A stretch of 64,000 bases of DNA from Flavobacterium sp. GTDB lineage: Bacteria > Bacteroidota > Bacteroidia > Flavobacteriales > Flavobacteriaceae. The DNA lies in contig NZ_JAIXSL010000020.1 of NCBI RefSeq assembly GCF_027484705.1, forward strand, positions 18,172 to 82,171, read 5' to 3'. The first letter of the stretch is position 1. The number at the start of each line of letters is the position of its first letter. A model generated the notes under the pieces. That model was not told the origin of the DNA, made no database searches, and saw nothing but the letters and a program-made list of their open reading frames with translations. Below, piece by piece: positions 17,808 to 33,494 of the stretch. Position numbers and translations under genes: made by a program.

Positions 17808-17833
17808 TCATCAAAAAAAATAGACTTTAAATT

Positions 17834-17875: not shown

Positions 17876-17887
17876 TCGTTTTACTCC

Positions 17888-17924: not shown

Positions 17925-17951
17925 AACCTTAATTTGGGGAAAAAAGGGGAA

Positions 17952-20900
17952 TTATTCAATAATTATTTTCTTGCTCAAATCGCCTTTGGTGGTGACCACT
18001 TTCACGATATAAGCGCCTGTACTGACATTGACGACAGGAATTTTAATTTTTGTCTGGTCTGCATTCTTAACATCCCATGATTTGATTGATTGGCCTAACA
18101 TGTTGTAAAGCTCCACAGTTTTGATTGTGGCATCTGACATGGTGTTGCTGATGTTGATCATATCATCAGTGTTTGTATACGATACGATTACTTCTTTGCC
18201 TAGTTCAAAATCATTCGTTCCTAAAGCTGAATTGGTGAAACGAAGTGAGAATCTGGTATCATAAGTTCCTACCGGCAAATTGATTTCAAAATTATTGCTA
18301 CGGATATCATGGTACTCATCGGTCACATTATCATGGATGTAGATATTTTGATTCGCATCAAGGTTTTCTGTGTCATCCAAAGTGAATTTTACGTTTCCTT
18401 CTGCACCATTTTTCACGCTCAAAGGCAATATTTTGCTGTCGCTGAAGGCATCTACACCTTGAATCACGAGGTTTTGTCCCGGAATCGCAAAGTAGAAATC
18501 ATTCGGCTGGATATCAAGTTGCGGTGCATCATAACCTGAATCGAAACCTTCTGTCGCGAATTCGTTCATGAATCCCAGGAGAATCTGACGGTGGGCACCA
18601 TTCACGGCATCGAACCCTAAACGAATTTTAGAGAAATTGGTGTTGTTCTCGGCGATTCGGTCTTCGTGGTTGTCAAAACGGCTGTCAACGATTGATGCTG
18701 TTGCGTTGTTTTGTCTGAACATCACATTAGATGTTGGGTCAGTTTCTTTAATGAAAGCTCTTTGGCTGTTATCGAAAGTGATGTTTCCGCCACTTCCGCT
18801 TCCGTATACCAAGAATCCTTGTCCTACAGGGATGAATCTGGCTGGGATTCTTGAACTCGATCCTGCACCGCTAATACCAGCAGGTGCTACCGGAGGCGTT
18901 CCACCTACAAGATTTCTTGCTGCGTAACCACCCTGATATTCTACCAGATTGTGCGAAGTGTTCGTGTTGTAATGCTCCCAGAAATATATGGCTCCTGTAG
19001 TTGAAGCGGTATTGGCCGCAATAAACGCATCAGCATCGATAGCAGAAGCATAAGGGTTTCCACACAAGTTCAAATTACCTCCGGCAATCGGTACGGTGAT
19101 CGTTCCGTTGTTTGGTTTTCCTACAAAGGTGTAATTCTGATTGGCTGTAGCTGCGCTGCTTCCTTTCATCGTAAATCCTTGTGCAGGATTTAAACTTCCG
19201 TTTTGTCCTACAGCGGCCCAGTTCGCATATTGAGGCGTCAGGTTCTGGAATTTGAAAATCCAGTAGCTGCTCAACGTAATCGGAGAAGTTGCGGCACCAT
19301 TGTATCCAGAAGTCCAAGTGATGTTCTGGATGTTGTTCGGATCGGTTCCGTCACGCAACACGCCGTTTACAGTAAAGGCATTGTTATTCGTTGTCGCGCT
19401 CAATCCGCCCACAGGTGATGACCAGTAGTTGTAATTGAACTTATTCGATTGACCTTGTTGGTCTCTTTCTATTGAACCGGCACTCGTCGCATCGAGTTCA
19501 CTGTTGGTCGACTGCACCAATTGTGATTTTCCTTGCAAGTCGATTTTACCATCGAGTTTCAAATACCAGTCATTTTGGATTTTAGTATCGTTATTCATCG
19601 TGATGGTTACACCCGGATCTACGAACATTGCCAAATCGGTGGAGTTTGCAGTTTCGGTAATATTGTGTTTCACCTGAATGATGGAATAATCATAATCTGT
19701 AACATCCAATCCTCGGATATCTTTAGTAGCATCGTTAACAGCTGTAGCGAATGTTCCTGTAGTTTTCGTCACGAAAGGCATTGGCGCTTCCTGTACTTTG
19801 ATCACTTTGTGGTTGTAGATTTTCATTCCGGTACCAGTATCGATACCTGAAGTGATTAAATTATCTACGATATCATCTTTGTACGCATCCATTCTGTAAT
19901 ATCTTAATATGTTGCTGTAAGCCAAACTTCCTATGTCTTTAGGCACTATGGCACCTCTGACTTCAGTTCCGTTGTTTTGAATTTCCTGATATACCATGCG
20001 TTGGAATTGGGAATCCGTCAACGCGGTATTGAATACTCTAAGCTCATCAATTTTACCTTTGAAGTAAGTGTTGGCCGCACTAGGGTTTTTACCCAAAGTC
20101 AATACGCTGGAAGCGATACTTCCTGTGGCTGCACCAGAATTGACCATCACACCGTTAAGGTATAGTTTTACAGTGGCTCCGTTGTAAACTGCACCGACAT
20201 GATACCATTGTGAGGTATTGAGTGCTGTAGTGGTGTAAGCGACAGTCGTTCCGTTGACAATAGCTTCTAAGTTCCTGCTGCTGTTGATGCGCAATTGGAA
20301 GTTAGGGGTTCCAGCAATAACTCCTGTGGCAGAAAATGCACTATTAAGGTCGATCCAAGCCATCATCGAAGTATTGGTCAATACGCCAAGCGCTGTAGCA
20401 TCCTGTCCGTAATCGTTTCTACCGTCGAAGTCTAAGAACAGTTTTCTGTTGAGATCTCTTGGAGAGCCTAGTGCTGCTGTATTGGTATCGAAAGCGTCGA
20501 TGATTCCGTCTTTATCGGTATCGGTTGCGCCGTCAATTTTACCATCGTTATTGGCATCGAGTGAAGCATATAAAGAGCCTGCAATATCGGTGATACCATC
20601 ATTATTGGAATCAACCTGTAAATAATCAGGGTTGCCGATACCGTCGGTATTTTGAGTGTAAGGTCTTACGGCTGTTCCGAATCCGCTTAAAGTATCGTAA
20701 ATATCCAAGATACCGTCACGATCCGTATCCACGCCATCGCCTTTACCATCGCCGTTAATATCACCGTCGCCCATGTTGGCAATCGCTTCATCTACGTCGA
20801 ATAAGCTGTCATTATCACTATCCAAATCGATAGCATCTCTTGCGCCGTCACCGTCAGTATCTGGAACTGAGTTGTTGACTCCTGTGTATATTGGGTCGAT

Positions 20901-23900
20901 GACGTCATTCATTCCGTTCAGGTTGGCATCTGTCCAAGTTCCGCTGAGGCTCATTTTAGAAGTTCCGCCACTGTATTGTTTGAAACCGCCTTCTTCGATA
21001 TCGGCAATGCCGTCATTGTCTGAATCAAGGTCGAACAAGTTGGCTACACCATCGGCATCCCAATCGCAATAGGTTTGCGTGATTAAGATATCGTCCATAG
21101 CAAAGTCATTTCCACCACCACCTGGGGCGTTGTTTCTAATTTTTACCATGAAATCGGTGACGTTTCCAAGATTTACAGTAGTAGAATAATTCAACCAGTT
21201 GGATAATGATGGTCCACAAGTATTGTCAAGCGGATCCGTTGCAGAACATCTTCCGATATCGCCGGTGTTGTATGAAGTATATAAAGTCGCCCCAGTAATA
21301 TCTCTAAATTCAATGGTAATGTTTGGTTTAATGGTTCCGCCAAGATTACCTTGTCGCATGATATTCATGACCCAAAATCCGAATGAGATTGGCGCATTAG
21401 GCAATACACCGTTTATTAATACTTGGTAGAAATAGGTTCCGGCAGTATTATCGGCGTTGTAAATGGCCATCCTACCGTTGGTGTCAGCAGGCGTATGGTC
21501 TAACTGATCAGTCCATGCCAAACTTTGGTGCACACTCTCTGGGTAGGCTGCATTTGAATTGTGGGAAATATAATAATTTACACAATATTCACCATCATCC
21601 AGACGAATGGAACCATTGCTACCACAATTATTCGCATTTCCGGCAATTCCGTCTTCATAACAAGAAGTAGTAGAAGCTCCAGGAATGTTGATGTTGATCA
21701 AACCTCTTGTTTTTCCTGAACCAAAGGTTTCATTCAAAAACGTTTGGGTAATGGCACTTGCAAAAGGAGAAGCGACACAGCTTGATTGCTCTAAAGTATC
21801 TACGATTCCGTCGTTGTCATCATCGAGGTCAAAGTTATCCGTTACGCTATCGCCGTCTGTATCTACGTAGGTTCTTACACCAGTGGCAGTGATTGAGAAA
21901 TTAAATGGATTCTCATCGATATCGTTGTTGGCAATAGATATTGTAGCAGTCTTAACGCCTAACACAGTAGGGTTGAAAGAGATTTGCAATATTGTTGACG
22001 CTCCGGAAGCAACAGAAGCGGCCGGCGCTCCGGTTATTGTAAAGTCACTAGCATTGGCTCCAGCAATAGTAATGGCGCCAATAACCAAAGGACCTGTACC
22101 AGAATTCGTGATGACATAATTCGCCAATACGTTTCCGTTTTCAATAGAAACGGTTCCAAAATCAGTCCAGTCGTCTTGAGAAGGAGAACTGTCGCCATCT
22201 ACGATATTGGTATATAAACCTGAAACCGCTATTTCACTTGTTGAGGTTGCGCTTATACCAAATATATATGGGTTTTCATTACTATCATTGTTAGGGATAT
22301 TGATGGTCGCAGTTCTTACACCAACCACTGTAGGTGCGAAGGTTACTACAAAAGTACTTGTGGTTGTTCCGGCTACGATGGCACTTGGAGCCGTTGAGAT
22401 GCTAAAATCTCCAGGATTTGCTCCTGTTATTGTAATTGCTCCAATGTTTAAGTTCATCGTGCCCGTATTTCTGATCGTGAAGGTTCTTGTAATGGCAACA
22501 TTACTAAAGTCCGTCCAGTCAGAGGTGTTTGGTGACATGTCACCAGTAGCGATTGAAGAACCGTTTCCTTGAATGTCAATTTCTTGAGCTACTCCTGTTC
22601 CTTGCAAGGTAAAATCGTAAGGGTTTTCGTTAGCATCATTATTTACAATTGACATGATGGCACTTCTTGTTCCAACAGCCGCTGGCGCAAATCGAACCAC
22701 AAATGTTGTGCTGCTGTACCCTGCCACTGATGCACTAGGAGGTGTTGTGATTGAGAAATCTCCTGGGTTTGTTCCGCTAAAGGTAATTGCTCCGATTGTC
22801 AGTGCTGTGGCACCTGTATTGAAAATCGTAAATGTTCTTGAGGTAGCGGTCGTACTGAAGTCTGTCCAGTCTGCCGTTGTTGGAGAGTTATCACCATCGA
22901 CAATAGAAACACCATTTCCTTGAATGTCTATTTCGTTATTGATTGCCGTTCCACGGATGGAGAAATCATAAGGATTTTCATCGGAATCATTATTTACAAT
23001 TGAAATTGTTGCGTTACTAGTTCCAATTCCAATTGGGGTATACAATACTGTAAAAGTGCTACTAGATCCTGCGATGATAATAGCCGCTGGAGGAGAAGAG
23101 ATACTAAAGTCGGCCGCATTTGCGCCTGAAAAGGTAATCGCTCCAATGGTCAGTGGCGAAGTTCCTGTATTTCTAATGGTGAATGTTCTTGTTGTAGTTA
23201 CGTTACTAAAGTCAGTCCAGTCTGCTGTAGTAGGAGTAGTGTCACCATCTACAATTGAGGTGGCATTCCCTAGAACGTCCATTTCTTGAGCAGTTCCAGT
23301 TCCTTGTAATGTATAATTGAATGGGTTTTCTGTTAAGTCATTATTTGCAATATTGATCATTGCCGTTCTCACACCCACTGCTGTAGGGTCGAATGTAACT
23401 ACAAGAGTAGTGCTTGCTCCTGATGCAACAGTGGCACTTGGCGGCGTTGTTACTGTAAAGTCACCCGGATTTGTACCTGAGAAGGTAATTGCTCCAATGG
23501 TTAAAGTGGCTACACCAGTATTGTTGATTGTAAAAGTTCTGGTGATACTTCCCGTATTAATATCTGTTGTTCCGAAGTCCGTCCAATCTGCTACAGTTGG
23601 CGTAATATCACCATCTACAATATCAACGGCATTTCCTAGAACGCTTATTTCTGGTTCGGTTCCTGTTCCTTGCAGCGTAAAATCATACGGATTTTCATTA
23701 CTATCATTGTTGACAATAGACATCGATGCTGATCTCACTCCTCCTGCACCAGGAACAAAAGTGACCACAAATGTTGTACTTCCGTATCCTGCCACCGTTG
23801 CAGCTGGTGGCGTAGTTACAGAAAAGTCTGTTGGATTTGCCCCGCTGAAAGAAATGGCACCGATGGTCAAACTAACCGCACCCGTATTTTGAATGGTGAA

Positions 23901-26246
23901 CGTTCTCGTCAGTGATCCGGAAACGGCTACCGTTGTTCCGAAGTCTGTCCAATCTGCCGCAGTAGGGGTAACGTCTCCATCAACGATAGAGGTACTATTT
24001 CCTTGAATGTTTATTTCCTGAGCTAAGCCTGTTCCTTGGATAGAAAAATCATATGGATTTTCATCAAGGTCATTGTTTGCTATAGAAATGGATGCCGTAC
24101 GAACTCCAACTGCTGATGGTGTAAAAGTAACTACAAAAGTAGTACTCGAACTAGCGCCAACGGTTGCGCTTGGTGCTGTGGTTACGGAAAAGTCAGCTGC
24201 ATTTGCACCAGATATGGAGATTGCTCCAACACCTAAGGTACTTGAACCTGAATTTCGGATTGTAAAAGTTCTTGTTGATGCTGTTCCAAAATCTGTCCAA
24301 TCAGCTGCTGAAGGCGTGATGTCTCCATCAACGATTGAAGTGGCATTTCCTTGTACATCTATTTCGTTAATAAAAATGGTTGCCGTAACGGCTACTCTTG
24401 GAGCAGAATTACACGTACCATTAAATGACTGTACATAGTAAGTAGTGGTCGAAAAAAGAACTGGAGTTGTAAAACTGTTTCCCGTTCCTAATGATCCTCC
24501 ACCAGTTGCGTTTGCATACCAAGATATGGTACCTGAAGAAGCTGTTGCAGCTAAGGTAACCGATCCTGATCCAATTCTTGAAGCAGGGGTCGTACTTGTT
24601 ATAGTTGGTGAACTTAATATAGTAAGTGTTTTTGTTGAAGTTACCAAGCTGCAAACAAGACTGTAAGCTGTAAGCGTAAGAGTAACACTTCCTGCTGCGA
24701 TATCTGCAGCGCTTGGAGTATAAGTACAAGTGCTTAATGAATTAGGATTTGCAAAAGTTCCTGTGCCACTACTAGTCCATGTAACACTCGAGTGATTTGA
24801 AGCGCCTGACCCGAAAGTGATGTTTACCGCTCCATCGCTAGAACAAGTTGTAATATTAGAACCCGCGACAGCTGTCGGTTTTTCGTAAACAGTTAGAAAC
24901 TTGGAGGAAATTACAACACCGCATGGTGCATTTCCTGTTGCGTTTAATGTTATCGTTACCGTTCCTCCCGCTATATCCGAAGCACTTGGTGTATAGGTGC
25001 AAAGTGTCAATGAATCTGCGTTTGTAAAGGTTCCAGTCCCACTTGATGTCCATAAAACGGAAGTATAGTTGGTGGCGCTTGCACCAGAAGTAATGTTGAA
25101 CGATGTCGATGTTGAGCAACCCGAAATATTGCTTCCAGCAACAGCTGTAGCCGAATCAGCTATATTTACGGACGTTGTATTAAAACTACTGATGACAGTA
25201 CTACAACCGGCACCTGACGAAAGGTTTGTAATCGTAACAGTAGTAGTCCCTATATTCAACAAAGGCGTTGTAATAGTACCTGTACCCGGACTTCCTGCCG
25301 TGAATGTCATCGTAGCAGTATTTCCCGTGGCTGAAGTTGCTCCGGATAAATTATAAGTTACTGTATAAGTTCCTGAAGGTAATGTTGTTGATCTTAACGT
25401 AACGGTTGCAGCCGAAGCATTACAAAATGGTCCGTTATTGGTTGCCGCTACTGTAAGGGCGTATGTAGGACATGTCCAGGATACAATGACCTGACCATCG
25501 GCTCCGTTTCCACCTATAGTATTGGCAGAGCCTGAGGAGTTTTTATCTCCTGCGCCACCACCACCACCACCAGGTGTAGCCGTGTTGTCTGATCCGTTAT
25601 TAGTATTCGACCCTCCATTTGCACCTGCACCTGCGCCAGTAGGTACTGGAGTAGGAGCATTAATACCCGTAGTGTTGTTCCAAGGATTTGGACCTGACAA
25701 ACCATTGCTTAAGGTTCCAGCAGAAGTTGCTCCGGGTCCACCATGTCCTGTATTTGCATCTCGTCCATAACCACCGGTTCCTCCATTGTATTTGGTTGTA
25801 CCGATACTGGCAGAGCCTAAACCACCGGTACCACCGATACCACCGATACCGCTTACTGGAGGATTACCACCGTTTCCACCTTTGGCCATTACTGTGCCTG
25901 CGGTACTGAACCATGAATCTCCTCCGTTTCCACCGATACCACCTGCAACGGCCGTTCCACCAGTACCAATTGTAACGGTATGGGTTCCGGGTGCTATTGC
26001 GAGTGCTGGATTGGTACTATAAGCACCACCACCACCACCACCGGCACCATCGGATGTTGTTGAATTTCCTCCACCAGCACCACCAGCACCCCAAGCCTGA
26101 ACCTGAACTGTTGTAACCCCAGCAGGAGCAACAAATACTCCTGAAGATGTAAAGGTTTGTGTGGTCTGTGAATAACCTAATGTTACTAATAGCAAAAAGC
26201 CTATTAGTATAATTTTTTTCCTGTTTAATAATGTAATTGTTTTCAT
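17952..26246 (-). CDS. Giant T9SS-secreted adhesin-like protein 1 (2764 aa): Gly-rich N-domain, Ig-like repeats, 7 choice-of-anchor-D-like repeats, DxDxDG Ca-binding repeats, lectin-like domain, LamG-like domain, type A CTD
   Basis: Signal peptide from ATG 26246 (MKTITLLN...GYSQ); 7 repeats EI.V.GN...DGD..P...DWTDF...ENPY.F...GTG; LamG FDGRNDY/WYHV/GKIDELR; CTD ELYNMLGQ...STGAYIVKV...KKIIIE. Confidence 0.9.
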   Translation of the reverse strand: MKTITLLNRKKIILIGFLLLVTLGYSQTTQTFTSSGVFVAPAGVTTVQVQAWGAGGAGGGNSTTSDGAGGGGGGAYSTNPALAIAPGTHTVTIGTGGTAVAGGIGGNGGDSWFSTAGTVMAKGGNGGNPPVSGIGGIGGTGGLGSASIGTTKYNGGTGGYGRDANTGHGGPGATSAGTLSNGLSGPNPWNNTTGINAPTPVPTGAGAGANGGSNTNNGSDNTATPGGGGGGAGDKNSSGSANTIGGNGADGQVIVSWTCPTYALTVAATNNGPFCNASAATVTLRSTTLPSGTYTVTYNLSGATSATGNTATMTFTAGSPGTGTITTPLLNIGTTTVTITNLSSGAGCSTVISSFNTTSVNIADSATAVAGSNISGCSTSTSFNITSGASATNYTSVLWTSSGTGTFTNADSLTLCTYTPSASDIAGGTVTITLNATGNAPCGVVISSKFLTVYEKPTAVAGSNITTCSSDGAVNITFGSGASNHSSVTWTSSGTGTFANPNSLSTCTYTPSAADIAAGSVTLTLTAYSLVCSLVTSTKTLTILSSPTITSTTPASRIGSGSVTLAATASSGTISWYANATGGGSLGTGNSFTTPVLFSTTTYYVQSFNGTCNSAPRVAVTATIFINEIDVQGNATSIVDGDITPSAADWTDFGTASTRTFTIRNSGSSTLGVGAISISGANAADFSVTTAPSATVGASSSTTFVVTFTPSAVGVRTASISIANNDLDENPYDFSIQGTGLAQEINIQGNSTSIVDGDVTPTAADWTDFGTTVAVSGSLTRTFTIQNTGAVSLTIGAISFSGANPTDFSVTTPPAATVAGYGSTTFVVTFVPGAGGVRSASMSIVNNDSNENPYDFTLQGTGTEPEISVLGNAVDIVDGDITPTVADWTDFGTTDINTGSITRTFTINNTGVATLTIGAITFSGTNPGDFTVTTPPSATVASGASTTLVVTFDPTAVGVRTAMINIANNDLTENPFNYTLQGTGTAQEMDVLGNATSIVDGDTTPTTADWTDFSNVTTTRTFTIRNTGTSPLTIGAITFSGANAADFSISSPPAAIIIAGSSSTFTVLYTPIGIGTSNATISIVNNDSDENPYDFSIRGTAINNEIDIQGNGVSIVDGDNSPTTADWTDFSTTATSRTFTIFNTGATALTIGAITFSGTNPGDFSITTPPSASVAGYSSTTFVVRFAPAAVGTRSAIMSIVNNDANENPYDFTLQGTGVAQEIDIQGNGSSIATGDMSPNTSDWTDFSNVAITRTFTIRNTGTMNLNIGAITITGANPGDFSISTAPSAIVAGTTTSTFVVTFAPTVVGVRTATINIPNNDSNENPYIFGISATSTSEIAVSGLYTNIVDGDSSPSQDDWTDFGTVSIENGNVLANYVITNSGTGPLVIGAITIAGANASDFTITGAPAASVASGASTILQISFNPTVLGVKTATISIANNDIDENPFNFSITATGVRTYVDTDGDSVTDNFDLDDDNDGIVDTLEQSSCVASPFASAITQTFLNETFGSGKTRGLININIPGASTTSCYEDGIAGNANNCGSNGSIRLDDGEYCVNYYISHNSNAAYPESVHQSLAWTDQLDHTPADTNGRMAIYNADNTAGTYFYQVLINGVLPNAPISFGFWVMNIMRQGNLGGTIKPNITIEFRDITGATLYTSYNTGDIGRCSATDPLDNTCGPSLSNWLNYSTTVNLGNVTDFMVKIRNNAPGGGGNDFAMDDILITQTYCDWDADGVANLFDLDSDNDGIADIEEGGFKQYSGGTSKMSLSGTWTDANLNGMNDVIDPIYTGVNNSVPDTDGDGARDAIDLDSDNDSLFDVDEAIANMGDGDINGDGKGDGVDTDRDGILDIYDTLSGFGTAVRPYTQNTDGIGNPDYLQVDSNNDGITDIAGSLYASLDANNDGKIDGATDTDKDGIIDAFDTNTAALGSPRDLNRKLFLDFDGRNDYGQDATALGVLTNTSMMAWIDLNSAFSATGVIAGTPNFQLRINSSRNLEAIVNGTTVAYTTTALNTSQWYHVGAVYNGATVKLYLNGVMVNSGAATGSIASSVLTLGKNPSAANTYFKGKIDELRVFNTALTDSQFQRMVYQEIQNNGTEVRGAIVPKDIGSLAYSNILRYYRMDAYKDDIVDNLITSGIDTGTGMKIYNHKVIKVQEAPMPFVTKTTGTFATAVNDATKDIRGLDVTDYDYSIIQVKHNITETANSTDLAMFVDPGVTITMNNDTKIQNDWYLKLDGKIDLQGKSQLVQSTNSELDATSAGSIERDQQGQSNKFNYNYWSSPVGGLSATTNNNAFTVNGVLRDGTDPNNIQNITWTSGYNGAATSPITLSSYWIFKFQNLTPQYANWAAVGQNGSLNPAQGFTMKGSSAATANQNYTFVGKPNNGTITVPIAGGNLNLCGNPYASAIDADAFIAANTASTTGAIYFWEHYNTNTSHNLVEYQGGYAARNLVGGTPPVAPAGISGAGSSSRIPARFIPVGQGFLVYGSGSGGNITFDNSQRAFIKETDPTSNVMFRQNNATASIVDSRFDNHEDRIAENNTNFSKIRLGFDAVNGAHRQILLGFMNEFATEGFDSGYDAPQLDIQPNDFYFAIPGQNLVIQGVDAFSDSKILPLSVKNGAEGNVKFTLDDTENLDANQNIYIHDNVTDEYHDIRSNNFEINLPVGTYDTRFSLRFTNSALGTNDFELGKEVIVSYTNTDDMINISNTMSDATIKTVELYNMLGQSIKSWDVKNADQTKIKIPVVNVSTGAYIVKVVTTKGDLSKKIIIE

Positions 26247-26299
26247 AACTTCTTTTCCCCCGAAAGCGGTTTTAGTTAATATGTAATCATTTAACAAAC

Positions 26300-26371
26300 C
26301 AAAAGTAGTCAGTGAAATTTAATTTACAAAATTTTTTATCGACAAAATACACAAAACATCGATGAAATGCA
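26300..26371 (-). promoter_or_regulatory. Promoter of adhesin gene 1 with upstream direct repeats
   Basis: -7 TACTTTTG (26307-26300), 19 nt, -33 TTTG (26330-26327), 7 nt, then 14-mers TGTATTTTGTCGAT (26351-26338) and TGCATTTCATCGAT (26371-26358). Confidence 0.8.
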
Positions 26372-26423
26372 TGTTTTTTAATAAAAAATAATATTTATCT
26401 TACGATAATTAATATTTTTTAAA

Positions 26424-26452
26424 ATAAAAAAGCTCCTCATAACGAGGAGCTT
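26424..26452 (-). terminator. Terminator of adhesin gene 2
   Basis: AAGCTCCTC-ATAAC-GAGGAGCTT perfect stem plus A-tract. Confidence 0.85.
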
Positions 26453-26477
26453 GAACCTTGATTTGGGGAAAAAAGGG

Positions 26478-29400
26478 TTATTTGATGATTATCTTTTTAC
26501 TTAAATCACCTTTTGTGGTGTGTACCTTTACAATGTATGCTCCGGTACTAATGTTAGTTACTGGAATTTTAACTTTACTTTGATCGTTTTCACTGACATT
26601 CCAAGATCTTATGGATTGACCTAATATATTGTAGAGTTCAACAGATTTGATAGTTTCATTCATCAAATTATTATTGATATTAATCATCGCGTCATTACTC
26701 GTAAATGAAATAACGACTTCCTGACTTAAATCGAAATCATTGATGTCAAGCGCTGTGTTAGAAAAACGTAACGAGAAACGCGTGTCATAAATTCCGACAG
26801 GAAGGTTGATTTCAAAATTGCCGCTTCGGATATCATGATACTGTTCAGTAACACTGTCATAGATGTAGATGTTCTGGCTGGCGTCAAAATTTTCCGTGGC
26901 GTCTAGCGTGAATTGTACAGTACCTTCCATACCATTCTTAAGACTTAACGGCAGCACTTTATGAGCATCATATGCGCCGACACCTTGAATTACTAAATTT
27001 TGTCCCGGAATCGCAAAGTATAGATCATTGGGTTGTGTGTCAAGTTGTGAAGCATCATAACCGATGTCAAAAGCATCTGTAGCAAATTCGTTCATGAAAC
27101 CTAACAGAATCTGACGGTGGTAATTATTCACAGAATTGAAACCGATCCTGATCTTAGAGAAACTCTGGGTTTCGACCATGCGGTCTTCATGATTGTCAAA
27201 TTGTTTGTCGATGATGGACAAGTCCTGATTGCTTTGTCTGAACATCACATTTGAGGTCGGATCATTTTCTTTCACAAAACTTCTTTGGTTGTTGTTGAAA
27301 GTGATGGTGCCGCCTGTCCCGCTTCCGTAGACTAGGAAACCTTGCCCTACAGGAATATACCTGCTCGGTATTCTAGTGCTTCCGCCCGAAGTGCTGACTC
27401 CAGTTGGAGAAACCGGAGGTGTTCCGCCCACAAGATTTCTCGCGGCATAACCACCCTGATAATCTAAAAGATTGTGCGAAGTGTTGGTGCCGAAATGTTC
27501 CCAGAAATATAATGTTCCCGTAATCGAAGCGCTGTTGGCCATGATAAACGCATCAGCATCAAGCGCTGAAGGATAAGGATTTCCGCAAAGATTTAAATTG
27601 CCTCCAGCTATTGTAGTAGTAATTGTACCGTTGTTTGGTTTGCCAACAAAGGTATAATTCTGCGAAGCTGATCCAGATCCCGTACCTTTCATCGTAAATC
27701 CTTGCGCCGCTTGTAAAGTACCGGTATCTCCAACGGCTGACCAGTTTGAATAAACCGGAGTCAGGTTCTGGAATTTAAAAATCCAATAGCTGCTGAGTGT
27801 AATTGGTGAAGTAGGAGCGCCATTATAACCTGCTGACCAAGTAATATTCTGTGGGTTGTTCGGATCAGTTCCGTCACGTAATACGCTGCCAATGGTGAAA
27901 GCATTGTTGTTCGATGTCGCATTGATAGCACCTACAGGCGAAGACCAATAGTTGTAGTTGAACTTATTCGATTGCCCTTGCTGGTCTCTTTCGATGGATC
28001 CTGCGCTGGTGACATCCAGATCGCTGTTGGCAGTCTGAATCAATTGTGATCTTCCCTGAAGGTCGATTTTTCCATCGAGTTTTAAATACCAGTCATTTTG
28101 GATTTTGGTATTGTTGTTCATCGTAACGGTAACACTCGGATCTACAAACATCGCCAGATCGGTTGCGTTGGCGGTTTCCGTGATATTGTGTTTCACCTGA
28201 ACGATAGAATAATCGTAATCGGTCGCATCGAGTCCGCGAATGTCTTTACTCGGATCGTTTATTGCCGTAGCAAAAGTTCCGGTAGTGCGGGTTACGAAAG
28301 GCATTGGCGCTTCCTGTACTTTGATTACTTTGTGGTTGTATATTTTCATTCCGGTTCCGGCGTCAATAGCAGCCGTTGTAAAATCATCAATGATGTCATC
28401 TTTGTAAGCGTCCATTTTGTAATATCTCAGCAAGTTCGCATAAGGCAAAGATTGAATGTCTTTAGGAACAATCGCACCTCGGACTTGACCTGCTGTATTT
28501 TGAATTTCCTGATAAACCATGCGTTGCACTTGAGCATCCGTCAAGGCTGTATTGAAGATTCTCACTTCATCGATTTTACCTTTGAAGTATTTAGTATTGG
28601 AACTCGGGTCTTTTCCTAAAGTCAATAAAGACGCATCAGCTGCAATATTTCCTGTAGCAGGCGTACTGATAACTTGCACGCCGTTCAAATATAATTTTAA
28701 GAAACCACCGCCATAAACCGCGGCTACATGATACCAACGTGAGGCATTTAAATCGAAATTGTATTTTAGAATGGTGGAGTTGACCACTGCTTCCAATCGG
28801 GCACCACTAGTGATACGCATCTGGAATTTATCCTGTCCGACGACAACACCATCAGAAGAGAAAGCACTATTCAAATCGATCCAGGCCATTAACGTCGCTT
28901 CAGGCAAACCACCTAGAACACCGGTTCCTTGACCGTAATCGTTTCTTCCGTCGAAATCTAAAAACAGTTTTCTGTTGAGGTTTCTTGGAGAACCTACCGC
29001 TGCGGTATTGGTGTCGAAAGCATCGAGAATTCCATCGCGGTCAATATCCGTCGAGCCGTCAATTTTTCCGTCGTTGTTGGTGTCTAAACTGCCATACAAA
29101 CCGGTTTGGATGTCATTGATTCCGTCAGCATTCGAATCTAATTGTAAGTAATCGGGTACGCCGTTAGTATTCGTGTCCTGTGCATAAGCTCTGGCCACGG
29201 TTCCGTAGGCTGCTGAATTGTCGTAAAGATTTAAGATTCCGTCACGATCGGTATCACTGCCATCGCCTTTTCCGTCGCCGTTGATGTCTCCATCGCCGTT
29301 GGCAAGCCCAGCTTCATCGACATCAAATAAAGAGTCATTGTCGCTGTCTAAATCCAGATAGTTGGGAATTCCGTCGCCATCAGTATCCGGGATAGCGTAA

Positions 29401-32400
29401 GTTCCGGCTGAAATTAAGGTGTCTATGTAATCGTTCATACCATTGGCATTGGTGTCTCTCCAGTTTGCCGCGTTGGTTTTATCAAAAGTCGAAGTGTTGT
29501 TGCTGTAGTTTTTGAAACCGGCTTCTTCGATATCCGCCACGCCATCGTTGTCGTCATCAAGGTCAATGATGTTGGCCATACCATCGCTGTCTGTATCTAC
29601 ACAAGCCTGGTTGATGGTGATTTGAACATCATCTATAAAGTTTCCGATGGACGCACTTCCTGATGCCGTATATCCAGCCTGAAAAGCCAGTACGATTTGA
29701 GTTTGCCCCGCAGGAATGATATAGGTTCCTGAGTACAATCCCCATGCACCCGTACCGTCAACCATAGTAGCAATCGGCGTATTGGTTTGCGCATCGGCTA
29801 AAGTGGTTCCGAATCTTACGAAAGCCTGATCGACACCGGATCTTCCCCGGTGCTTAATAGACCAGGTGATGGTTCCTGAAGCGCCATTCAAACAAAATGT
29901 TTGGTATAAAGTACCGGCAACATTCGCGTTCAATTCCGCAAATTGATTTCCTTGTGCTGCGTCGACTCCGTTGAATCCTGTACTCCAGATTTCAATCAGG
30001 TTTTCAGGGGAACTCTGCCATCCTGTTACATTGGCAGCGGGCATGATGCTGTATGTTGTTGCCCCTAATATAGGGCTGGTCACTTCAAAACTTCCGTTGG
30101 TGAATGGGTCGGTCAAACAAGTTCCGCACTCGATCACATCCGTGATTCCGTCGTTGTCATCATCGCTGTCCGTTCCGTTGTTCACGCCGTCTCCATCGCT
30201 ATCGATATTGACACCGGTCGCAATGATGCTGAAATCATAGGGATTTTCATCGCTGTCATTATTTGCAATGTTCAATGTGGCTACACGGACACCTACGCCA
30301 AGTGGAGAAAACGTTACCGTGAAAGTCGTTGAGCCGTAAGCTGGAATGGTTGAAACAGGCAAAGTGGTCACTGCAAATTCAGTGGCGTTCGGCCCAGAGA
30401 AACCAATACTTCCTATGGCCAACGGAACATTTCCGGAGTTTTGGATGGTGTATGTTCTTGTAAAAGTGACGTTGCTGAAATCAGTCCAGTCGGCTGTGGT
30501 TGGTGAGTTGTCGCCATCGGTAATGGTTACGGCATTTCCCAGAACCGTTATTTCCTGAGCGATTCCGGTTCCTTGAATGGAGAAATCGTATGGGTTTTCA
30601 TTGTTGTCGTCATTATCAATAGAAATTGTTGAGGTTCTCGTTCCTCCCGCTGTTGGGTTGAAAGCTATCGTAAATGTGGTAGAACCACCGGCAGCTACAG
30701 TAGCCGAAGGAGCGCTTGTAACGCTAAAGTCTGAGGCATTGGCACCAGAAATCATTACTGTTCCCAAATTTAATACGGCTACTCCAGTATTTCGGATCGT
30801 GAAAGTTTTTGTGGTCAAGGCTGAACCAAAATCGGTCCAGTCGGTTGTTGATGGCGTAGTATCACCATCAGCAATTGAAGTCGCATTGCCCTGAATATCA
30901 ATTTCAGGATTGTTTACAGTAGCTACCACTGGCGTTCTTGGTGTCGAAGAGCAACCGCTCAAAGTCATGGCTGAAGCATAGTAAGTAGTAGTTACTCCAA
31001 TTGATGGTGTTGTCCAGCTGTTTCCGCTTCCTATTGGCCCGCCACCGCTTAGTGTGGTATACCAGAAAACCCCGCCTGATGAACAGGTTGCACCTAACAC
31101 CACTGTTCCCGTATTAATTCTTGAACCCGGCGTTGAACCGGTTATTGTCGGTAAGGCATTTACTGTCATCGTTAATGCATTCGATGTAGCAGGTGAAGCA
31201 ATGACACAAGTAGCATTGGAAGTCATTACACATGTAATCACATCGCCGTTGGCCAAAGCTGAAGTGGCAAAAGTAGTACTGTTGGTTCCTACACTCACAC
31301 CATTTTTCTTCCATTGATAGGAAGGTGTTGTTCCACCATTGGTTGGCGTTGCCGTAAAAGTTTCTGTATTGCCCGCGCAGGTTGTTGTAGCGGTAGCAAC
31401 GATGCTTACACTTGCTGTAACATTTGGCGTGATGGTTAGTGTTTTGGTTGAAAAGATGGTTCCGCAAGGCGCATTTCCGGTTACGTTTAACCTTAAAGTT
31501 ACGCTACCGGAAGCAATATCCAATGTGCTAGGAGTATAAGTGCACAAGGTTAATGAACTAGGATTAGTAAATATTCCCGTGCCACTTGAAGCCCATGAAA
31601 AAGACGTGTAACCGCTTGCGCTGGCACCAGCAGTTATGTTTACTGCGCCGCTATTGGCACAAGTAGTTACATTCGTTCCGGCGATAGATGTTGGTGCTGT
31701 AATTAAAGTGGCCACAACTGCCGTTCTGCTAGCGGTTGTGCAACCATTATTGGTAGCATCGACATAATATGTTGTTGTTGAAGTTATACTTGGAGCGAAA
31801 GAAGTTCCGGTTCCAATACTTGCCCCGCCTGTCGCAGCAGCATACCAGTTGATGGTTCCGGCACTTGCCGTAGCGCCTAAAGTTGCCGTTCCGGCACCAC
31901 ATATTGTTGCAGGACTGGTAGTGGTGATGGTTGGCGTAGGGTTATAAGTTCCTGTTAAAGGCGAACTGACATTATATACTCTGCAACTGCCTCCACTGTT
32001 ATAAGCATATATTCTATAGTAAATATTGCTGCAAGTCGCTCCGATATTATCTGCAAACGTAGTTGTCGATTGACCGCTATTTATTGCAGCAACTGTCCAC
32101 GCTCCGACGGATTGTCCTACCGCCAATGAAGCCATGTTGGTTGGATTGGTTGTGGCGGGAACAGAAGCAGCGATAGCTCTTAAAATAACATAGCCACTAG
32201 AAACGCATTGCGTAAATGATCCGTTTATTGTAGTTCCGGAATTACTCAAAACCAATGAAGTGGGTTGACTTGGAGGCGCAGTCGGACTTATAGTACTTGC
32301 CGGAGAAAGGATAGAACCTCCTGTATTGGCTACATATAAATATTGACCTGTGTTTCCAATAGTACCTGAATTGCTAAACGATCCGGTAGATCTTAAGCTG

Positions 32401-32972
32401 TTACAATTGGAGCCCACGCCACCAACAATTGAATTGTTATTGGTAATACTTCCGGCAACAACAGCACCGGTTATGGTTAGGGTTGCGTTATTAGTTAGAC
32501 TACTGGAAAGGGTGGTAGTACCTCCCAGAGTAATGCTTGAATTGGCGGTAATGCTACCGGCATTGAGCGTTCCATTGTTTACAAAAGGGCAGTTAATATT
32601 GGTACTACTGCCAAGAGTTATAGTTCCTGTGAGCGCATTGGTAAAATTGCATCCGCTATTAAAATTTAAATTGTTGACGTTCTGAAATGTTCCGTTATTA
32701 ATGATGGTCCAGTTGCCATTGTAATTTGGAGCAGCAGAAGGATTGTACGTAACACCGGTGCCGATGCATAGTGTATTCCCGTTGAAATTATTCAACCTAC
32801 CTGTAAAAGTTCCAGTTCCAGTGATACAAATGGTTGTGCCCGCAGTAACGCTGTAGGTTAAATTGTTTGGTACTGTGATGTTCAAAGTGCATCCTGTACA
32901 TTGGCCGTAAACGTCTTTGCAATTTATCATCAGTAATGCAATGACCGTAAATTTAAGTAGTAAGTTTTTCAT
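26478..32972 (-). CDS. Giant T9SS-secreted adhesin-like protein 2 (2164 aa): Asn/Thr-rich N-region, FN3/Ig-like domains, 2 choice-of-anchor-D-like repeats, DxDxDG repeats, CBM-like domain, LamG-like domain, type A CTD
   Basis: Signal peptide MKNLLLKF...VYGQ; C-terminal ~1000 aa colinear with protein 1; CTD ELYNILGQ...STGAYIVKV...KKIIIK. Confidence 0.9.
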   Translation of the reverse strand: MKNLLLKFTVIALLMINCKDVYGQCTGCTLNITVPNNLTYSVTAGTTICITGTGTFTGRLNNFNGNTLCIGTGVTYNPSAAPNYNGNWTIINNGTFQNVNNLNFNSGCNFTNALTGTITLGSSTNINCPFVNNGTLNAGSITANSSITLGGTTTLSSSLTNNATLTITGAVVAGSITNNNSIVGGVGSNCNSLRSTGSFSNSGTIGNTGQYLYVANTGGSILSPASTISPTAPPSQPTSLVLSNSGTTINGSFTQCVSSGYVILRAIAASVPATTNPTNMASLAVGQSVGAWTVAAINSGQSTTTFADNIGATCSNIYYRIYAYNSGGSCRVYNVSSPLTGTYNPTPTITTTSPATICGAGTATLGATASAGTINWYAAATGGASIGTGTSFAPSITSTTTYYVDATNNGCTTASRTAVVATLITAPTSIAGTNVTTCANSGAVNITAGASASGYTSFSWASSGTGIFTNPSSLTLCTYTPSTLDIASGSVTLRLNVTGNAPCGTIFSTKTLTITPNVTASVSIVATATTTCAGNTETFTATPTNGGTTPSYQWKKNGVSVGTNSTTFATSALANGDVITCVMTSNATCVIASPATSNALTMTVNALPTITGSTPGSRINTGTVVLGATCSSGGVFWYTTLSGGGPIGSGNSWTTPSIGVTTTYYASAMTLSGCSSTPRTPVVATVNNPEIDIQGNATSIADGDTTPSTTDWTDFGSALTTKTFTIRNTGVAVLNLGTVMISGANASDFSVTSAPSATVAAGGSTTFTIAFNPTAGGTRTSTISIDNDDNNENPYDFSIQGTGIAQEITVLGNAVTITDGDNSPTTADWTDFSNVTFTRTYTIQNSGNVPLAIGSIGFSGPNATEFAVTTLPVSTIPAYGSTTFTVTFSPLGVGVRVATLNIANNDSDENPYDFSIIATGVNIDSDGDGVNNGTDSDDDNDGITDVIECGTCLTDPFTNGSFEVTSPILGATTYSIMPAANVTGWQSSPENLIEIWSTGFNGVDAAQGNQFAELNANVAGTLYQTFCLNGASGTITWSIKHRGRSGVDQAFVRFGTTLADAQTNTPIATMVDGTGAWGLYSGTYIIPAGQTQIVLAFQAGYTASGSASIGNFIDDVQITINQACVDTDSDGMANIIDLDDDNDGVADIEEAGFKNYSNNTSTFDKTNAANWRDTNANGMNDYIDTLISAGTYAIPDTDGDGIPNYLDLDSDNDSLFDVDEAGLANGDGDINGDGKGDGSDTDRDGILNLYDNSAAYGTVARAYAQDTNTNGVPDYLQLDSNADGINDIQTGLYGSLDTNNDGKIDGSTDIDRDGILDAFDTNTAAVGSPRNLNRKLFLDFDGRNDYGQGTGVLGGLPEATLMAWIDLNSAFSSDGVVVGQDKFQMRITSGARLEAVVNSTILKYNFDLNASRWYHVAAVYGGGFLKLYLNGVQVISTPATGNIAADASLLTLGKDPSSNTKYFKGKIDEVRIFNTALTDAQVQRMVYQEIQNTAGQVRGAIVPKDIQSLPYANLLRYYKMDAYKDDIIDDFTTAAIDAGTGMKIYNHKVIKVQEAPMPFVTRTTGTFATAINDPSKDIRGLDATDYDYSIVQVKHNITETANATDLAMFVDPSVTVTMNNNTKIQNDWYLKLDGKIDLQGRSQLIQTANSDLDVTSAGSIERDQQGQSNKFNYNYWSSPVGAINATSNNNAFTIGSVLRDGTDPNNPQNITWSAGYNGAPTSPITLSSYWIFKFQNLTPVYSNWSAVGDTGTLQAAQGFTMKGTGSGSASQNYTFVGKPNNGTITTTIAGGNLNLCGNPYPSALDADAFIMANSASITGTLYFWEHFGTNTSHNLLDYQGGYAARNLVGGTPPVSPTGVSTSGGSTRIPSRYIPVGQGFLVYGSGTGGTITFNNNQRSFVKENDPTSNVMFRQSNQDLSIIDKQFDNHEDRMVETQSFSKIRIGFNSVNNYHRQILLGFMNEFATDAFDIGYDASQLDTQPNDLYFAIPGQNLVIQGVGAYDAHKVLPLSLKNGMEGTVQFTLDATENFDASQNIYIYDSVTEQYHDIRSGNFEINLPVGIYDTRFSLRFSNTALDINDFDLSQEVVISFTSNDAMININNNLMNETIKSVELYNILGQSIRSWNVSENDQSKVKIPVTNISTGAYIVKVHTTKGDLSKKIIIK

Positions 32973-33021
32973 AATCTTTTTCCCCCGAAAAAATTGTTAG
33001 TGATATAAATATTTAACGAGC

Positions 33022-33460: not shown

Positions 33461-33494
33461 AGATTTCGGTAAATGCAATACCGCAATGCGGGTG

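What the first reader, a model, noticed from the sequence alone, without database searches (positions are those of the whole stretch)
17936..32987. Both giant adhesin CDSs are bracketed at start and stop codon by complementary G4-A6 / T6-C4 elements
Gene 2 mRNA reads ...UUUCGGGGGAAAAAAG-AUU-AUG before the start (32987-32976) and UAA-CCCUUUUUUCCCC after the stop (26477-26465). This is a perfect 11-bp complement spanning 6.5 kb. Gene 1 repeats the pattern: GGGGGAAAAGAAG-UU-AUG (26261-26249) and UAA-UU-CCCCUUUUUUCCCC (17949-17936), giving 10 bp with one G-U pair. Both halves are kept at the same positions although the N-terminal coding regions are unrelated and the rest of the UTRs has drifted. 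G-runs are atypical of the A-rich Bacteroidota initiation region. Inference 1: a long-range 5'-3' UTR helix closes over the whole ORF and hides the initiation region once the full-length mRNA is made, or creates a dsRNA processing site, limiting output of a huge secreted protein. Inference 2 (weaker): DNA inverted repeats that could invert or excise the CDS relative to its promoter.
Basis: partly seen in the sequence, partly recalled or inferred. Interest (0 to 1): 0.75.

Follow-up and report, generated by a model that had tools for sequence, protein, structure and literature searches.

The report
Adhesin mRNA ends that can pair
Two neighbouring giant secreted-adhesin genes of a freshwater Flavobacterium each carry a G-rich patch just before the start codon and a matching C/U-rich patch just after the stop codon, and relatives show that this gene family has more than once evolved matching mRNA ends, which points to control by 5'-3' end pairing, so far without any experimental proof.

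Summary
Gene 2 has G5A5, not A6. Its helix is 11 bp including one G·U; gene 1's is 10 bp including one G·U.

Raw duplex energy is ordinary for this genome. With position restricted (25 nt before ATG against 25 nt after stop), the two genes rank 3rd and 4th of 1358 ORFs. Both motifs are otherwise almost absent from gene ends.

The clade that holds the window genes has 16 rows in the tree. All 11 members with both ends readable (window plus seven other assemblies) keep both halves. The G-run always starts 12-16 nt before the ATG and is the only such site in the 7-8 kb mRNA. A→G changes keep pairing as G·U. One nested lineage lost the G-run and has a degraded C-loop.

The 3' element is older. It is a small hairpin with a CCCC loop that occurs in sister lineages without any 5' partner.

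A sister clade has different, co-evolving helices of about 20 bp. They join the predicted first mRNA nucleotide to the first bases after the stop codon.

[quoted passage not shown] DNA inversion is not supported. There are no transcript data for this MAG.

The parts
26478..32972 (-). Gene 2. Secreted protein of 2164 aa with a T9SS C-terminal sorting domain, Ig-like domains and a LamG-like domain.
   Evidence: ORF and translation. Pfam hits Por_Secre_tail, Laminin_G_3 and Ig_7.
17952..26246 (-). Gene 1. Tandem paralogue of 2764 aa. Its C-terminal 1054 aa are 72% identical to gene 2.
32976..32993 (-). Gene 2 5' element, UUUUUU-C-GGGGG-AAAAA-G. The arm GGGGGAAAAAG (32986-32976) ends 3 nt before the ATG. 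It can also form a weak local hairpin with a G-rich loop.
   Evidence: Sequence. Duplex of 11 bp, -17.3 kcal/mol. Local fold -3.3 kcal/mol, z -1.5.
26456..26477 (-). Gene 2 3' element, CCC-UUUUUU-CCCC-AAAUCAAGG, starting at the first base after the stop codon. The arm CUUUUUUCCCC is 26475-26465.
   Evidence: Sequence. Local fold only -1.0 kcal/mol. CCC-T(5-6)-CCCC-AAA is kept in all 14 rows of the clade shown.
26252..26266 (-). Gene 1 5' element, CUUU-C-GGGGG-AAAA-G. The arm GGGGAAAAGA is 26260-26251. The G-run starts 15 nt before the ATG.
   Evidence: Sequence. Duplex of 10 bp including one G·U.
17927..17949 (-). Gene 1 3' element, CCCC-UUUUUU-CCCC-AAAUUAAGG, starting 2 nt after the stop codon. 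The arm UUUUUUCCCC is 17945-17936.
   Evidence: Sequence. Local fold -1.9 kcal/mol.
33017..33029 (-). Gene 2 predicted sigma-A -7 box TACTTTTG (33029-33022) and predicted transcription start near 33017. This gives a leader of about 45 nt.
   Evidence: Sequence, motif marked. The -7 box occupies -12 to -5 in Flavobacterium (PMC9723704). The start site is inferred, not measured.
26295..26307 (-). Gene 1 predicted -7 box TACTTTTG (26307-26300) and predicted start near 26295. This gives a leader of about 49 nt.
   Evidence: Sequence. Inferred as for gene 2.
33060..33093 (-). Gene 2 promoter-upstream direct repeats, TGCATTTTATCGAT and TGTATTTAATCGAT, 20 bp apart. Probably a transcription-factor site.
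   Evidence: The same module is found in 57 places in related loci.
26338..26371 (-). Gene 1 promoter-upstream direct repeats, TGCATTTCATCGAT and TGTATTTTGTCGAT.
26426..26452 (-). Gene 2 intrinsic terminator, AAGCTCCTC-gtta-tGAGGAGCTT followed by a T-run. It lies downstream of the 3' element, so the element is part of the transcript.
   Evidence: Sequence. Kept in the cofold. The stem differs from gene 1's by paired changes.
17888..17923 (-). Gene 1 intrinsic terminator, followed by T9.
   Evidence: Sequence, cofold.

Best explanation

The 3' arm (C)UUUUUUCCCC starts 0-5 nt after the stop codon and lies upstream of the terminator. The 5' arm GGGG(G)A4-5G lies 3-15 nt before the AUG. They can form a 10-11 bp helix. 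This most likely happens within one molecule, once the 6.5-8.3 kb transcript is complete.

Both arms lie where an initiating or a terminating ribosome would sit. The helix should therefore compete with ribosome loading and form best on mRNAs that are not being translated. The expected effect is to lower or cap initiation, and possibly to mark the mRNA for a double-strand-specific nuclease.

What is shown:
- the sequences, their positions, their rarity in the genome and their conservation;
- the energetic feasibility of the helix;
- that the family repeatedly shows 5'-3' complementarity.

What is inferred:
- that the helix forms in cells;
- that it forms in cis;
- that its effect is repression rather than stabilisation.

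Likely history: an old 3' hairpin (U-run stem, CCCC loop) was already present. In the window's clade the leader gained a near reverse-complement of it, and the hairpin's own 3' half-stem then decayed.
For: 1. Position-restricted rarity. The genes rank 3rd and 4th of 1358 ORFs, and both motifs are otherwise essentially absent from gene ends.

2. Conservation. The clade has 16 rows in the tree (99% support). All 11 members with both ends readable (window plus seven other assemblies) carry both the G-run and T5-6CCCC. CCC-T(5-6)-CCCC-AAA is kept in all 14 rows shown, while the flanking UTR sequence varies.

3. Unique partner. G4+A3+ occurs once in each clade member's 7-8.4 kb mRNA, always starting at -12 to -16. 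The only near-variants are single GGGGCAAA sites inside each of the two window CDSs.

4. Substitution pattern. The six positions after the G-run are always purines in the printed sequences. A→G changes keep pairing with the U-run as G·U. Over all ungapped helices in the family there are 246 Watson-Crick pairs, 10 G·U, 0 A·C and 4 other.

5. Linked decay.
- L007, nested in the clade, has a replaced leader without a G-run, and its CCCC has become CC.
- L013 has GGG with CC.
- L014 has GGG with CCCC.

6. Energetics. The heterodimer gains about 11 kcal/mol over the separately folded leader and 3' UTR and leaves the terminator intact. The competing local hairpins are only -1 to -3.3 kcal/mol with non-significant z-scores.

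7. Family context. A sister clade has helices of about 20 bp between the predicted +1 nucleotide (GUCAAA...) and the first bases after the stop codon.
- Their z-scores are -3 to -9, while other family members lie between -2 and +2.
- The arms co-evolved. Cognate pairings give -17.8 and -16.4 kcal/mol; swapped pairings give -8.7 and -9.1.
- This is a second, independent sequence solution to the same geometry.

8. Precedent. In icaR a C-rich UCCCCUG motif in the 3' UTR pairs with the ribosome-binding region of the same mRNA, blocks initiation and creates an RNase III site (PMC3868564). Distant pyrimidine-rich 8-mers pair with the ribosome-binding site in vivo in B. subtilis (PMC12697547).
Against: - No compensatory Watson-Crick change exists within the window's clade. 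G4:C4 never varies, and a pair that never varies is silent on the structure.
- The 5' A-run varies from 3 to 7 nt while the 3' U-run stays at 5-6 nt.
- The 3' element occurs as a well-formed local hairpin with covarying stems, with no G-run in the leader, in sister and basal lineages. Stem variants are CTTTCTT/AAGAAAG, CTTTTTT/AAAAAAG and CTTTTTG/CAAAAAG. The lineages are L009-L012, L036, L051-L053, L070, L081/82, L084, L095 and L098. It therefore has, or once had, a function that needs no 5' partner.
- Both arms are low-complexity sequence. Dinucleotide-preserving shuffles of the 3' UTR pair almost as well (z -1.7 and -0.9). Raw duplex energy is ordinary in wide windows.
- Ten or eleven base pairs across 6.5-8.3 kb is short. 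It is also shorter than a typical RNase III substrate.
- The transcription start and 3' end are predicted, not measured. No RNA-seq exists for this MAG.
- Flavobacteria do not use Shine-Dalgarno pairing (PMC9723704), so what the G-run does for initiation is unknown.
Confidence: 0.5

Rival explanations
1. The two elements work independently and their complementarity is a by-product. The 3' element would be the old small hairpin with a CCCC loop. It might act as an exonuclease barrier, a protein-binding site or an aid to termination. The purine-rich G5A5 tract would be a leader feature of this clade that affects initiation directly.
For: - The CCCC-loop hairpin has covarying stems and exists in many lineages without a 5' G-run.
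- There is no compensatory change between the arms within the clade.
- Both arms are low-complexity, and shuffle z-scores are weak.
- The lengths of the 5' U-run and A-run rise and fall together across orthologues, from C-U3...A3-G to U6...A7 in the sequences printed. This fits a local 5' hairpin.
Against: - In the window's clade the local hairpins are marginal, at -1 to -3.3 kcal/mol with non-significant z-scores. L006 and L008 have no 3' half-stem at all, yet T5-6CCCC is still kept.
- The G-run is the only one in each 7-8 kb mRNA and sits at a fixed distance from the AUG.
- G-runs near starts are almost absent elsewhere in the genome, at 3 of 1358 genes.
- A conserved 5' island that happens to be the near reverse-complement of the conserved 3' island should arise by chance at roughly 1 in 1000. 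This is my own estimate from island lengths and base composition.
- L007 and L013 show linked decay of both elements.
Confidence: 0.3
2. The pairing is real but does not occur within one mRNA. One version is that a stable 3' UTR fragment (C-loop element plus terminator) acts in trans on the leaders of both paralogues. The other is that, in read-through transcripts of the tandem pair, gene 2's 3' arm pairs with gene 1's leader only about 215 nt downstream and silences or processes the read-through copy.
For: - The 252-nt read-through stretch folds so that gene 2's 3' arm pairs with gene 1's G-run.
- The arms are interchangeable between the paralogues.
- In the sister clade the 3' arm is nearly invariant across species while the paired length of the 5' arms varies from 10 to 17 bp, as for an sRNA seed.
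- 3' UTR-derived sRNAs are an established class. This is general knowledge, and an example surfaced.
Against: - The L004, L005, L006 and L008 loci show only one family gene, yet keep both arms. The read-through version therefore cannot be the general reason.
- No processing site or internal promoter can be seen from sequence.
- There are no RNA data.
Confidence: 0.15
3. The elements are DNA inverted repeats used by a site-specific recombinase to invert the coding sequence relative to its promoter, giving phase variation.
For: Short inverted repeats do flank each CDS. Invertible regions are common in Bacteroidota (general knowledge).
Against: - All 57 promoter modules in 115 loci face the start of the gene; 55 are followed by an intact long ORF, one copy is frameshifted and one is cut by a contig end. 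No copy is inverted.
- No recombinase gene lies among the neighbours, which are hisS, a MacB/FtsX permease, a START-like protein, an aminotransferase, AlgH-like, a formyltransferase, RecQ and a methyltransferase.
- Arm mismatches are G·U-type only, with 10 G·U against 0 A·C. This matters for RNA but not for DNA.
- The repeats are only 10-11 bp and are imperfect.
Confidence: 0.02

Closest known systems
icaR mRNA 5'-3' UTR pairing in Staphylococcus aureus (PMC3868564)
   Same: A C-rich motif in the 3' UTR (UCCCCUG there, UUUUUUCCCC here) is complementary to a G-rich stretch in the ribosome-binding region of the same mRNA. The gene concerns surface adhesion or biofilm. The proposed outcome is a block to initiation and a double-stranded nuclease site.
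   Different: - icaR is a short mRNA with a long 3' UTR (the paper selected it among 3' UTRs over 100 nt). Here the ORF is 6.5-8.3 kb and the arm starts 0-5 nt after the stop codon.
- The icaR target is a true Shine-Dalgarno sequence, which Flavobacteria do not use.
- The icaR interaction is demonstrated by gel shift, toeprinting, RNase III assays and mutants. Here there is only comparative sequence evidence.
hbs mRNA 5'/3' UTR interaction in Bacillus subtilis (PMC5737220)
   Same: Pairing between the two ends of one bacterial mRNA influences ribonuclease access and couples stability to translation.
   Different: - The closest parallel to hbs is the sister clade, where the helix starts at the predicted +1 nucleotide.
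- In the window genes the predicted 5' end (GUUAAAU...) is not complementary to the 3' UTR, and the arm sits next to the AUG.
- No nuclease data exist here.
Long-range pairing of anti-SD-like pyrimidine-rich sequences with the ribosome-binding site (B. subtilis reporter screen, PMC12697547)
   Same: A distant pyrimidine-rich octamer pairs with a purine-rich initiation region, lowers translation and promotes decay.
   Different: In that work such sequences are deleterious and depleted from genes. Here the pyrimidine element is conserved at a fixed place, which implies it is used. The distance here is also about ten times larger.
Cyclization sequences of flavivirus genomes (general knowledge, not checked here)
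   Same: Complementary sequences of roughly 10-20 nt near the start of the ORF and in the 3' UTR bring the two ends of a long RNA together. The paired sequences differ between lineages while complementarity is kept.
   Different: That is a eukaryotic viral RNA, where cyclization serves replication. There is no relationship by descent. It is an analogy of architecture only.

Membership tests
icaR-type 5'-3' UTR pairing within one mRNA | Complementary sequences in the 3' UTR and in the initiation region of the same transcript. | tested here: met
   10-11 bp helices of about -16 to -17 kcal/mol. The arms lie 3-15 nt before the AUG and 0-5 nt after the stop, upstream of the terminator.
icaR-type 5'-3' UTR pairing within one mRNA | The complementarity is kept by evolution (covariation). 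| tested here: inconclusive
   Within the window's clade both arms are conserved, and the only changes seen are ones that keep a G·U pair. True co-evolution of arms is seen only in the sister clade.
icaR-type 5'-3' UTR pairing within one mRNA | The 3' motif mimics the anti-Shine-Dalgarno sequence and masks a functional Shine-Dalgarno sequence. | tested here: inconclusive
   The 3' arm is C-rich and the 5' arm G-rich. However, Flavobacterium translation does not rely on Shine-Dalgarno pairing (PMC9723704).
icaR-type 5'-3' UTR pairing within one mRNA | Physical interaction, a block to initiation and RNase III cleavage are demonstrated. | not testable with these tools
   No RNA runs exist for this genome. 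Metatranscriptome contigs of a relative show transcription only.
hbs-type pairing of the 5' terminus | The helix includes the first nucleotides of the transcript. | tested here: not met
   The predicted +1 region GTTAAAT has no complement in the 3' UTR of the window genes. The feature is met in the sister clade, where GTCAAA at the predicted +1 pairs with TTTGAC.
Invertible DNA segment (phase variation) | Both orientations are found, and a recombinase is present. | tested here: not met
   All 57 promoter modules face the start of the gene; 55 are followed by an intact long ORF, one copy is frameshifted and one is cut by a contig end. No recombinase lies among 8 neighbouring proteins.
Any curated Rfam family | A match reaching the family's gathering score. 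| tested here: not met
   Only a tRNA reaches threshold in window 17000-34000. The Phe_leader hit scores 27 bits against a threshold of 55. On the sister-clade locus, rteR and rnk hits are far below threshold.
3' UTR-derived small RNA | A stable RNA fragment consisting of the 3' UTR seed plus the terminator. | not testable with these tools
   The architecture (conserved seed directly upstream of an intrinsic terminator) is compatible. There are no transcript-end data.
T9SS-secreted adhesin-like cargo (the coding genes) | An N-terminal signal peptide and a C-terminal Por_Secre_tail sorting domain. | tested here: met
   Pfam PF18962 covers residues 2096-2163 of gene 2 and 2694-2763 of gene 1. 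The N-termini look like signal peptides.

The most novel reading that the evidence does not exclude
Giant T9SS adhesin genes of Flavobacterium may use end-to-end pairing of their mRNAs as a general device, invented at least twice in one family.

In one clade the first nucleotides of the transcript pair over about 20 bp with the bases right after the stop codon. In the window's clade the ribosome-loading site pairs with a C-loop element after the stop.

The secretion signal of these proteins is at the extreme C-terminus. A 5' end whose fate depends on the 3' UTR could therefore work as a check that the transcript is full-length. It could also act as a limiter that closes each mRNA once it is complete. 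A further version is that the conserved 3' UTRs are released as small RNAs that regulate the whole paralogue set.
Probability: 0.2. Interest if true: 0.85.

Novelty: new variant of a known kind. Interest (0 to 1): 0.62.

Why it matters
Pairing between the 5' and 3' UTRs of a bacterial mRNA is known from only a handful of studied cases, such as icaR and hbs, and all are in Firmicutes. I found no report of it in Bacteroidota, where translation initiation and RNA decay are poorly understood and Shine-Dalgarno pairing is not used.

Here a whole family of very long, secreted adhesin genes shows matching ends in two different sequence versions. One version has clear co-evolution of the arms.

If the pairing is real, it gives three things:
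- a natural, easily mutated system to study how the ends of 6-12 kb bacterial mRNAs communicate;
- a way to ask how expression of costly giant surface proteins is capped or quality-controlled;
- a test of whether 3' UTRs in this phylum are regulatory.

If it is not real for the window genes, the conserved CCCC-loop hairpin after the stop codon and the sister clade's +1-to-stop helices still need an explanation.

Tried and rejected
- Wide-window duplex energy and longest-complement scans (120 x 40 nt) do not single out the window genes. Dinucleotide shuffles of the 3' UTR are a poor null here because they keep the T- and C-runs.
- The third genomic copy of the 3' motif (contig C4, about 22530) is not at the end of a long ORF. 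It follows a terminator and was set aside.
- A loose search for the promoter repeats in the whole genome gave mostly noise. A stricter pattern found the full module only at the two window genes, plus one partial look-alike on C17.
- RNAalifold on concatenated 5' and 3' arms of 18 sister-clade genes recovered only the invariant 6-7 bp core, because MAFFT mis-handled the indels. An 8-sequence alignment was too small for pair counts. I used RNAduplex z-scores and an arm-swap test instead.
- Rfam gave no family for either kind of element.
- RNA runs: none for the window or for a group B locus. Metatranscriptome contigs for a group C relative show transcription but say nothing about the ends.
- The metagenome scan added no further members of the window's clade.
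- An antisense promoter as the source of the sister clade's 3' arm was rejected by eye. No TAnnTTTG lies at the right distance on the opposite strand in the sequences printed.
- Slipped-strand phase variation at G5 was rejected because the run is too short (general knowledge). A G-quadruplex was rejected because there is only one G-run.

Full report
**What is in the window**

The window lies in a 3.35 Mb, 40.7% G+C freshwater MAG. Its relatives are Flavobacterium species.

Two tandem genes lie on the - strand. Gene 2 is 26478-32972 (2164 aa) and gene 1 is 17952-26246 (2764 aa). Both encode giant secreted proteins with Ig-like repeats, a LamG-like domain and a T9SS C-terminal sorting domain.

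They are paralogues. The C-terminal 1054 aa are 72% identical. The aligned 5' flank and 3' end have a mean column identity of 82-83%.

**Check of the observation**

- Gene 2 reads UUUUUU-C-GGGGG-AAAAA-G-AUU-AUG. This is five A, not six. After the stop it reads UAA-CCC-UUUUUU-CCCC-AAAU.
- Gene 1 reads CUUU-C-GGGGG-AAAA-GAAG-UU-AUG, and after the stop UAA-UU-CCCC-UUUUUU-CCCC-AAAUUAAGG.

The best duplexes are 11 bp for gene 2 (ten Watson-Crick pairs plus one G·U, -17.3 kcal/mol) and 10 bp for gene 1 (one G·U, -16.0 kcal/mol). Each 3' element lies upstream of a clear intrinsic terminator, so it is part of the mRNA.

**Is it more than chance?**

It depends on the null model.

In a wide search (120 nt upstream x 40 nt downstream) of 1358 ORFs of the same genome, 20% reach -17 kcal/mol and 6% share a 9-mer. 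Dinucleotide shuffles, which keep the homopolymer runs, give z of only -1.7 and -0.9. Raw energy therefore proves nothing.

If the claim is taken literally (25 nt before the ATG against 25 nt after the stop), the two genes rank 3rd and 4th of 1358. The two better-scoring ORFs have G+C-rich upstream stretches that look like coding sequence, so their starts are probably miscalled.

A G4+A3+ tract within 30 nt of a start occurs in 3 of 1358 genes, and two of those are these genes. T4+C4+ within 30 nt after a stop occurs only in these two. CCC+T5-7CCCC occurs three times in the genome, and the third copy is not at the end of a long ORF.

Because the genes are paralogues, this is one event within this genome.

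**Relatives**

Scans of species-representative genomes and of metagenomes gave 114 loci and 130 family genes.

Nearly all share one promoter layout:
- two TGCATTTCATCGAT-like direct repeats about 20 bp apart;
- a TTTG at about -33;
- a TAnnTTTG -7 box;
- exactly four further bases, and then YGT(C/T)AAA.

In Flavobacterium psychrophilum the -7 box lies at -12 to -5 (PMC9723704). The G of GT(C/T)AAA is therefore the predicted +1. For the window genes this gives leaders of about 45 and 49 nt.

**The window's clade**

A protein tree puts the window genes in a 16-row clade with 99% support.

- All 11 members with both ends readable carry both the G-run and T5-6CCCC.
- CCC-T(5-6)-CCCC-AAA is kept in all 14 rows shown, while the flanking UTR sequence varies.
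- The G-run starts at -12 to -16 in every case. It is the only G4+A3+ site in each 7-8.4 kb mRNA.
- The six positions after the G-run are always purines in the printed sequences, so A→G changes still pair with the U-run as G·U. Over all ungapped helices in the family there are 246 Watson-Crick pairs, 10 G·U, no A·C and 4 other.

Two lineages show linked decay.
- L007, nested inside the clade, has a replaced leader without a G-run, and its CCCC has become CC.
- L013 has GGG with CC, while its neighbour L014 has GGG with CCCC.

There is no true compensatory Watson-Crick change in this clade.

**The 3' element is older than the 5' element**

In sister and basal lineages the same place holds a neat small hairpin with a CCCC loop and covarying stems:
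- CTTTCTT/AAGAAAG
- CTTTTTT/AAAAAAG
- CTTTTTG/CAAAAAG
- CCTTTT/AAAAGG
- GATTT/AAATC

Those leaders have no G-run. It shows that the hairpin has, or once had, a function of its own.

In the window's clade the 3' half of that stem has decayed. L006 and L008 have none, and the window genes fold to only -1 to -1.9 kcal/mol. Yet T5-6CCCC stays fixed.

The 5' element (C-U3-6-C-G5-A3-7-G) is nearly the reverse complement of the old hairpin, and it too can fold only weakly (-1.5 to -3.3 kcal/mol). The simplest reading is that the leader gained a partner for an existing 3' element, and that the constraint then shifted from local to long-range pairing. A loop-loop contact (G5 loop with C4 loop) that extends into the full duplex is compatible with both structures.

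Cofolding of leader and 3' UTR gains about 11 kcal/mol and keeps the terminator intact.

**A second solution in a sister clade**

A 31-row sister clade lacks the C-loop/G-run pair. Instead it has TTTGAC-containing 3' arms that pair with the predicted first nucleotides of the mRNA (GUCAAA...).

- In group B (5 assemblies) the helix runs for about 20 bp. It joins +1 to about +22 with the first 23 or so bases after the stop codon.
- In group C (9 assemblies) the core is 10-17 bp, with further pairs beyond it.
- Their z-scores are -3 to -9. All other family members, including the window genes, lie between about -2 and +2.
- The arms co-evolved. B 5' arms with B 3' arms give -17.8 kcal/mol and C with C -16.4, but B with C gives only -8.7 and -9.1.
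- Further paired changes can be read from the printed sequences. L091 has an extra A in one arm matched by an extra U in the other. An A-U pair in L020 corresponds to a G-C pair in L016.
- Other subgroups (D to H) keep only the 6-7 bp core. Many more distant paralogues have nothing.

GUCAAA at +1 is itself older than its 3' partner.

About 45 of 119 distinct genes therefore have matching ends, reached by two different routes. This raises the prior that the weaker, low-complexity match in the window genes is functional. It does not prove it.

**DNA inversion**

All 57 promoter modules face the start of the gene. Of these, 55 are followed by an intact long ORF, one copy is frameshifted and one is cut by a contig end. 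The neighbouring genes are housekeeping genes with no recombinase. The G·U-only mismatch pattern points to RNA on the sense strand. I consider this reading very unlikely.

**Mechanism**

I commit to RNA pairing between the 3' arm and the initiation region (confidence 0.5).

Both arms lie inside the space that an initiating or a terminating ribosome covers. The helix should therefore compete with translation, and should cap or lower initiation once the long transcript is finished. Nuclease attack on the duplex is a possible second effect.

The closest known case is icaR of S. aureus (PMC3868564). The sister-clade helices resemble hbs of B. subtilis in involving the 5' end (PMC5737220). PMC12697547 shows that distant pyrimidine-rich octamers do reach the ribosome-binding site in vivo.

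The following remain inferred: the transcript ends, formation of the helix in cells, cis versus trans action, and the sign of the effect. Trans action by a 3' UTR fragment is one alternative. Another is pairing in gene 2 to gene 1 read-through RNA, which folds the same way. Loci that show only one family gene also keep both arms, so read-through cannot be the general reason.

**Limits**

- No RNA data exist for this MAG.
- Metatranscriptome contigs only show that a group C relative is transcribed.
- No Rfam family matches.
- Gene starts in relatives were called by first ATG plus a signal-peptide-like N-terminus, and promoters by motif.

Noticed in passing
window 33060-33093 and 26338-26371 (- strand); the same module in L001-L114: Two direct repeats of about 14 bp (TGCATTTCATCGAT-like), 20 bp apart, lie upstream of the -33/-7 promoter elements. 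The module is conserved at 57 sites across the adhesin family. In the window's own genome the full module occurs only at these two genes. It is probably the binding site of a dedicated transcription factor.
   Followed up: partly
L016, L019, L020, L042, L078 (group B); L022, L023, L025, L032, L043, L045, L046, L064, L088 (group C): Helices of about 20 bp join the predicted +1 nucleotide (GUCAAA...) to the first bases after the stop codon. The arms co-evolve between the groups. Cognate pairings give about -17 kcal/mol against about -9 kcal/mol when the arms are swapped.
   Followed up: yes
L021-L025, L031, L032, L043, L045, L046, L087, L088, L092, L096: first 56 nt after the stop: The group C 3' UTR (GGTTTTGATAATTGATTTTTGACACCGAAAAGCCCCTCGACGTGAGGGGCTTTTC) is as conserved between species (88%) as the last 150 nt of the coding sequence (86%). 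It is a candidate 3' UTR-derived small RNA.
   Followed up: partly
L020:4412-4477 and equivalent leaders in L016, L019, L024, L026, L042: The group B and D leaders contain a local hairpin (AAATGAAG...CTTCATTT). Its 5' half is the same stretch that can pair with the 3' UTR. In L020 the 3' UTR repeats the hairpin's descending strand (CTTCATTT). This looks like two alternative pairings, that is, a switch.
   Followed up: no
L009-L012, L036, L051, L052, L070, L081/82, L084, L095, L098: 0-30 nt after the stop: A small hairpin with an invariant CCCC loop and covarying U/A-rich stems lies directly after the stop codon, in lineages that have no G-run in the leader. Its partner or function is unknown.
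   Followed up: partly
window 26229-26480 (- strand): A read-through transcript from gene 2 into gene 1 would fold so that gene 2's 3' arm pairs with gene 1's G-run about 215 nt downstream.
   Followed up: partly
window 33387-33460 (- strand): A tRNA gene (Rfam, 70.7 bits) lies about 300 nt upstream of the gene 2 promoter module.
   Followed up: no
genome contig C4, about 22530-22542 (- strand), outside the window: This is the only other copy of the CCCC-T5-CCCC motif in the genome. It lies just after a terminator-like hairpin and not at the end of a long ORF.
   Followed up: partly
L066, L034, L017: The family genes in these assemblies are split by frameshifts or stop codons. They may be pseudogenes or assembly errors in long-read MAGs. 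The promoter and both UTR elements are still present.
   Followed up: no
L013, L015, L033 (record titles): Contigs carrying typical Flavobacterium family genes are filed under MAGs named Sphingobacterium thalpophilum, Bifidobacterium breve and Rhizobium sp. These are probably binning or labelling errors in those records.
   Followed up: no
window 17888-17923: Gene 1's terminator lies between the convergent gene 1 and hisS (16437-17807, + strand), and may serve both.
   Followed up: no
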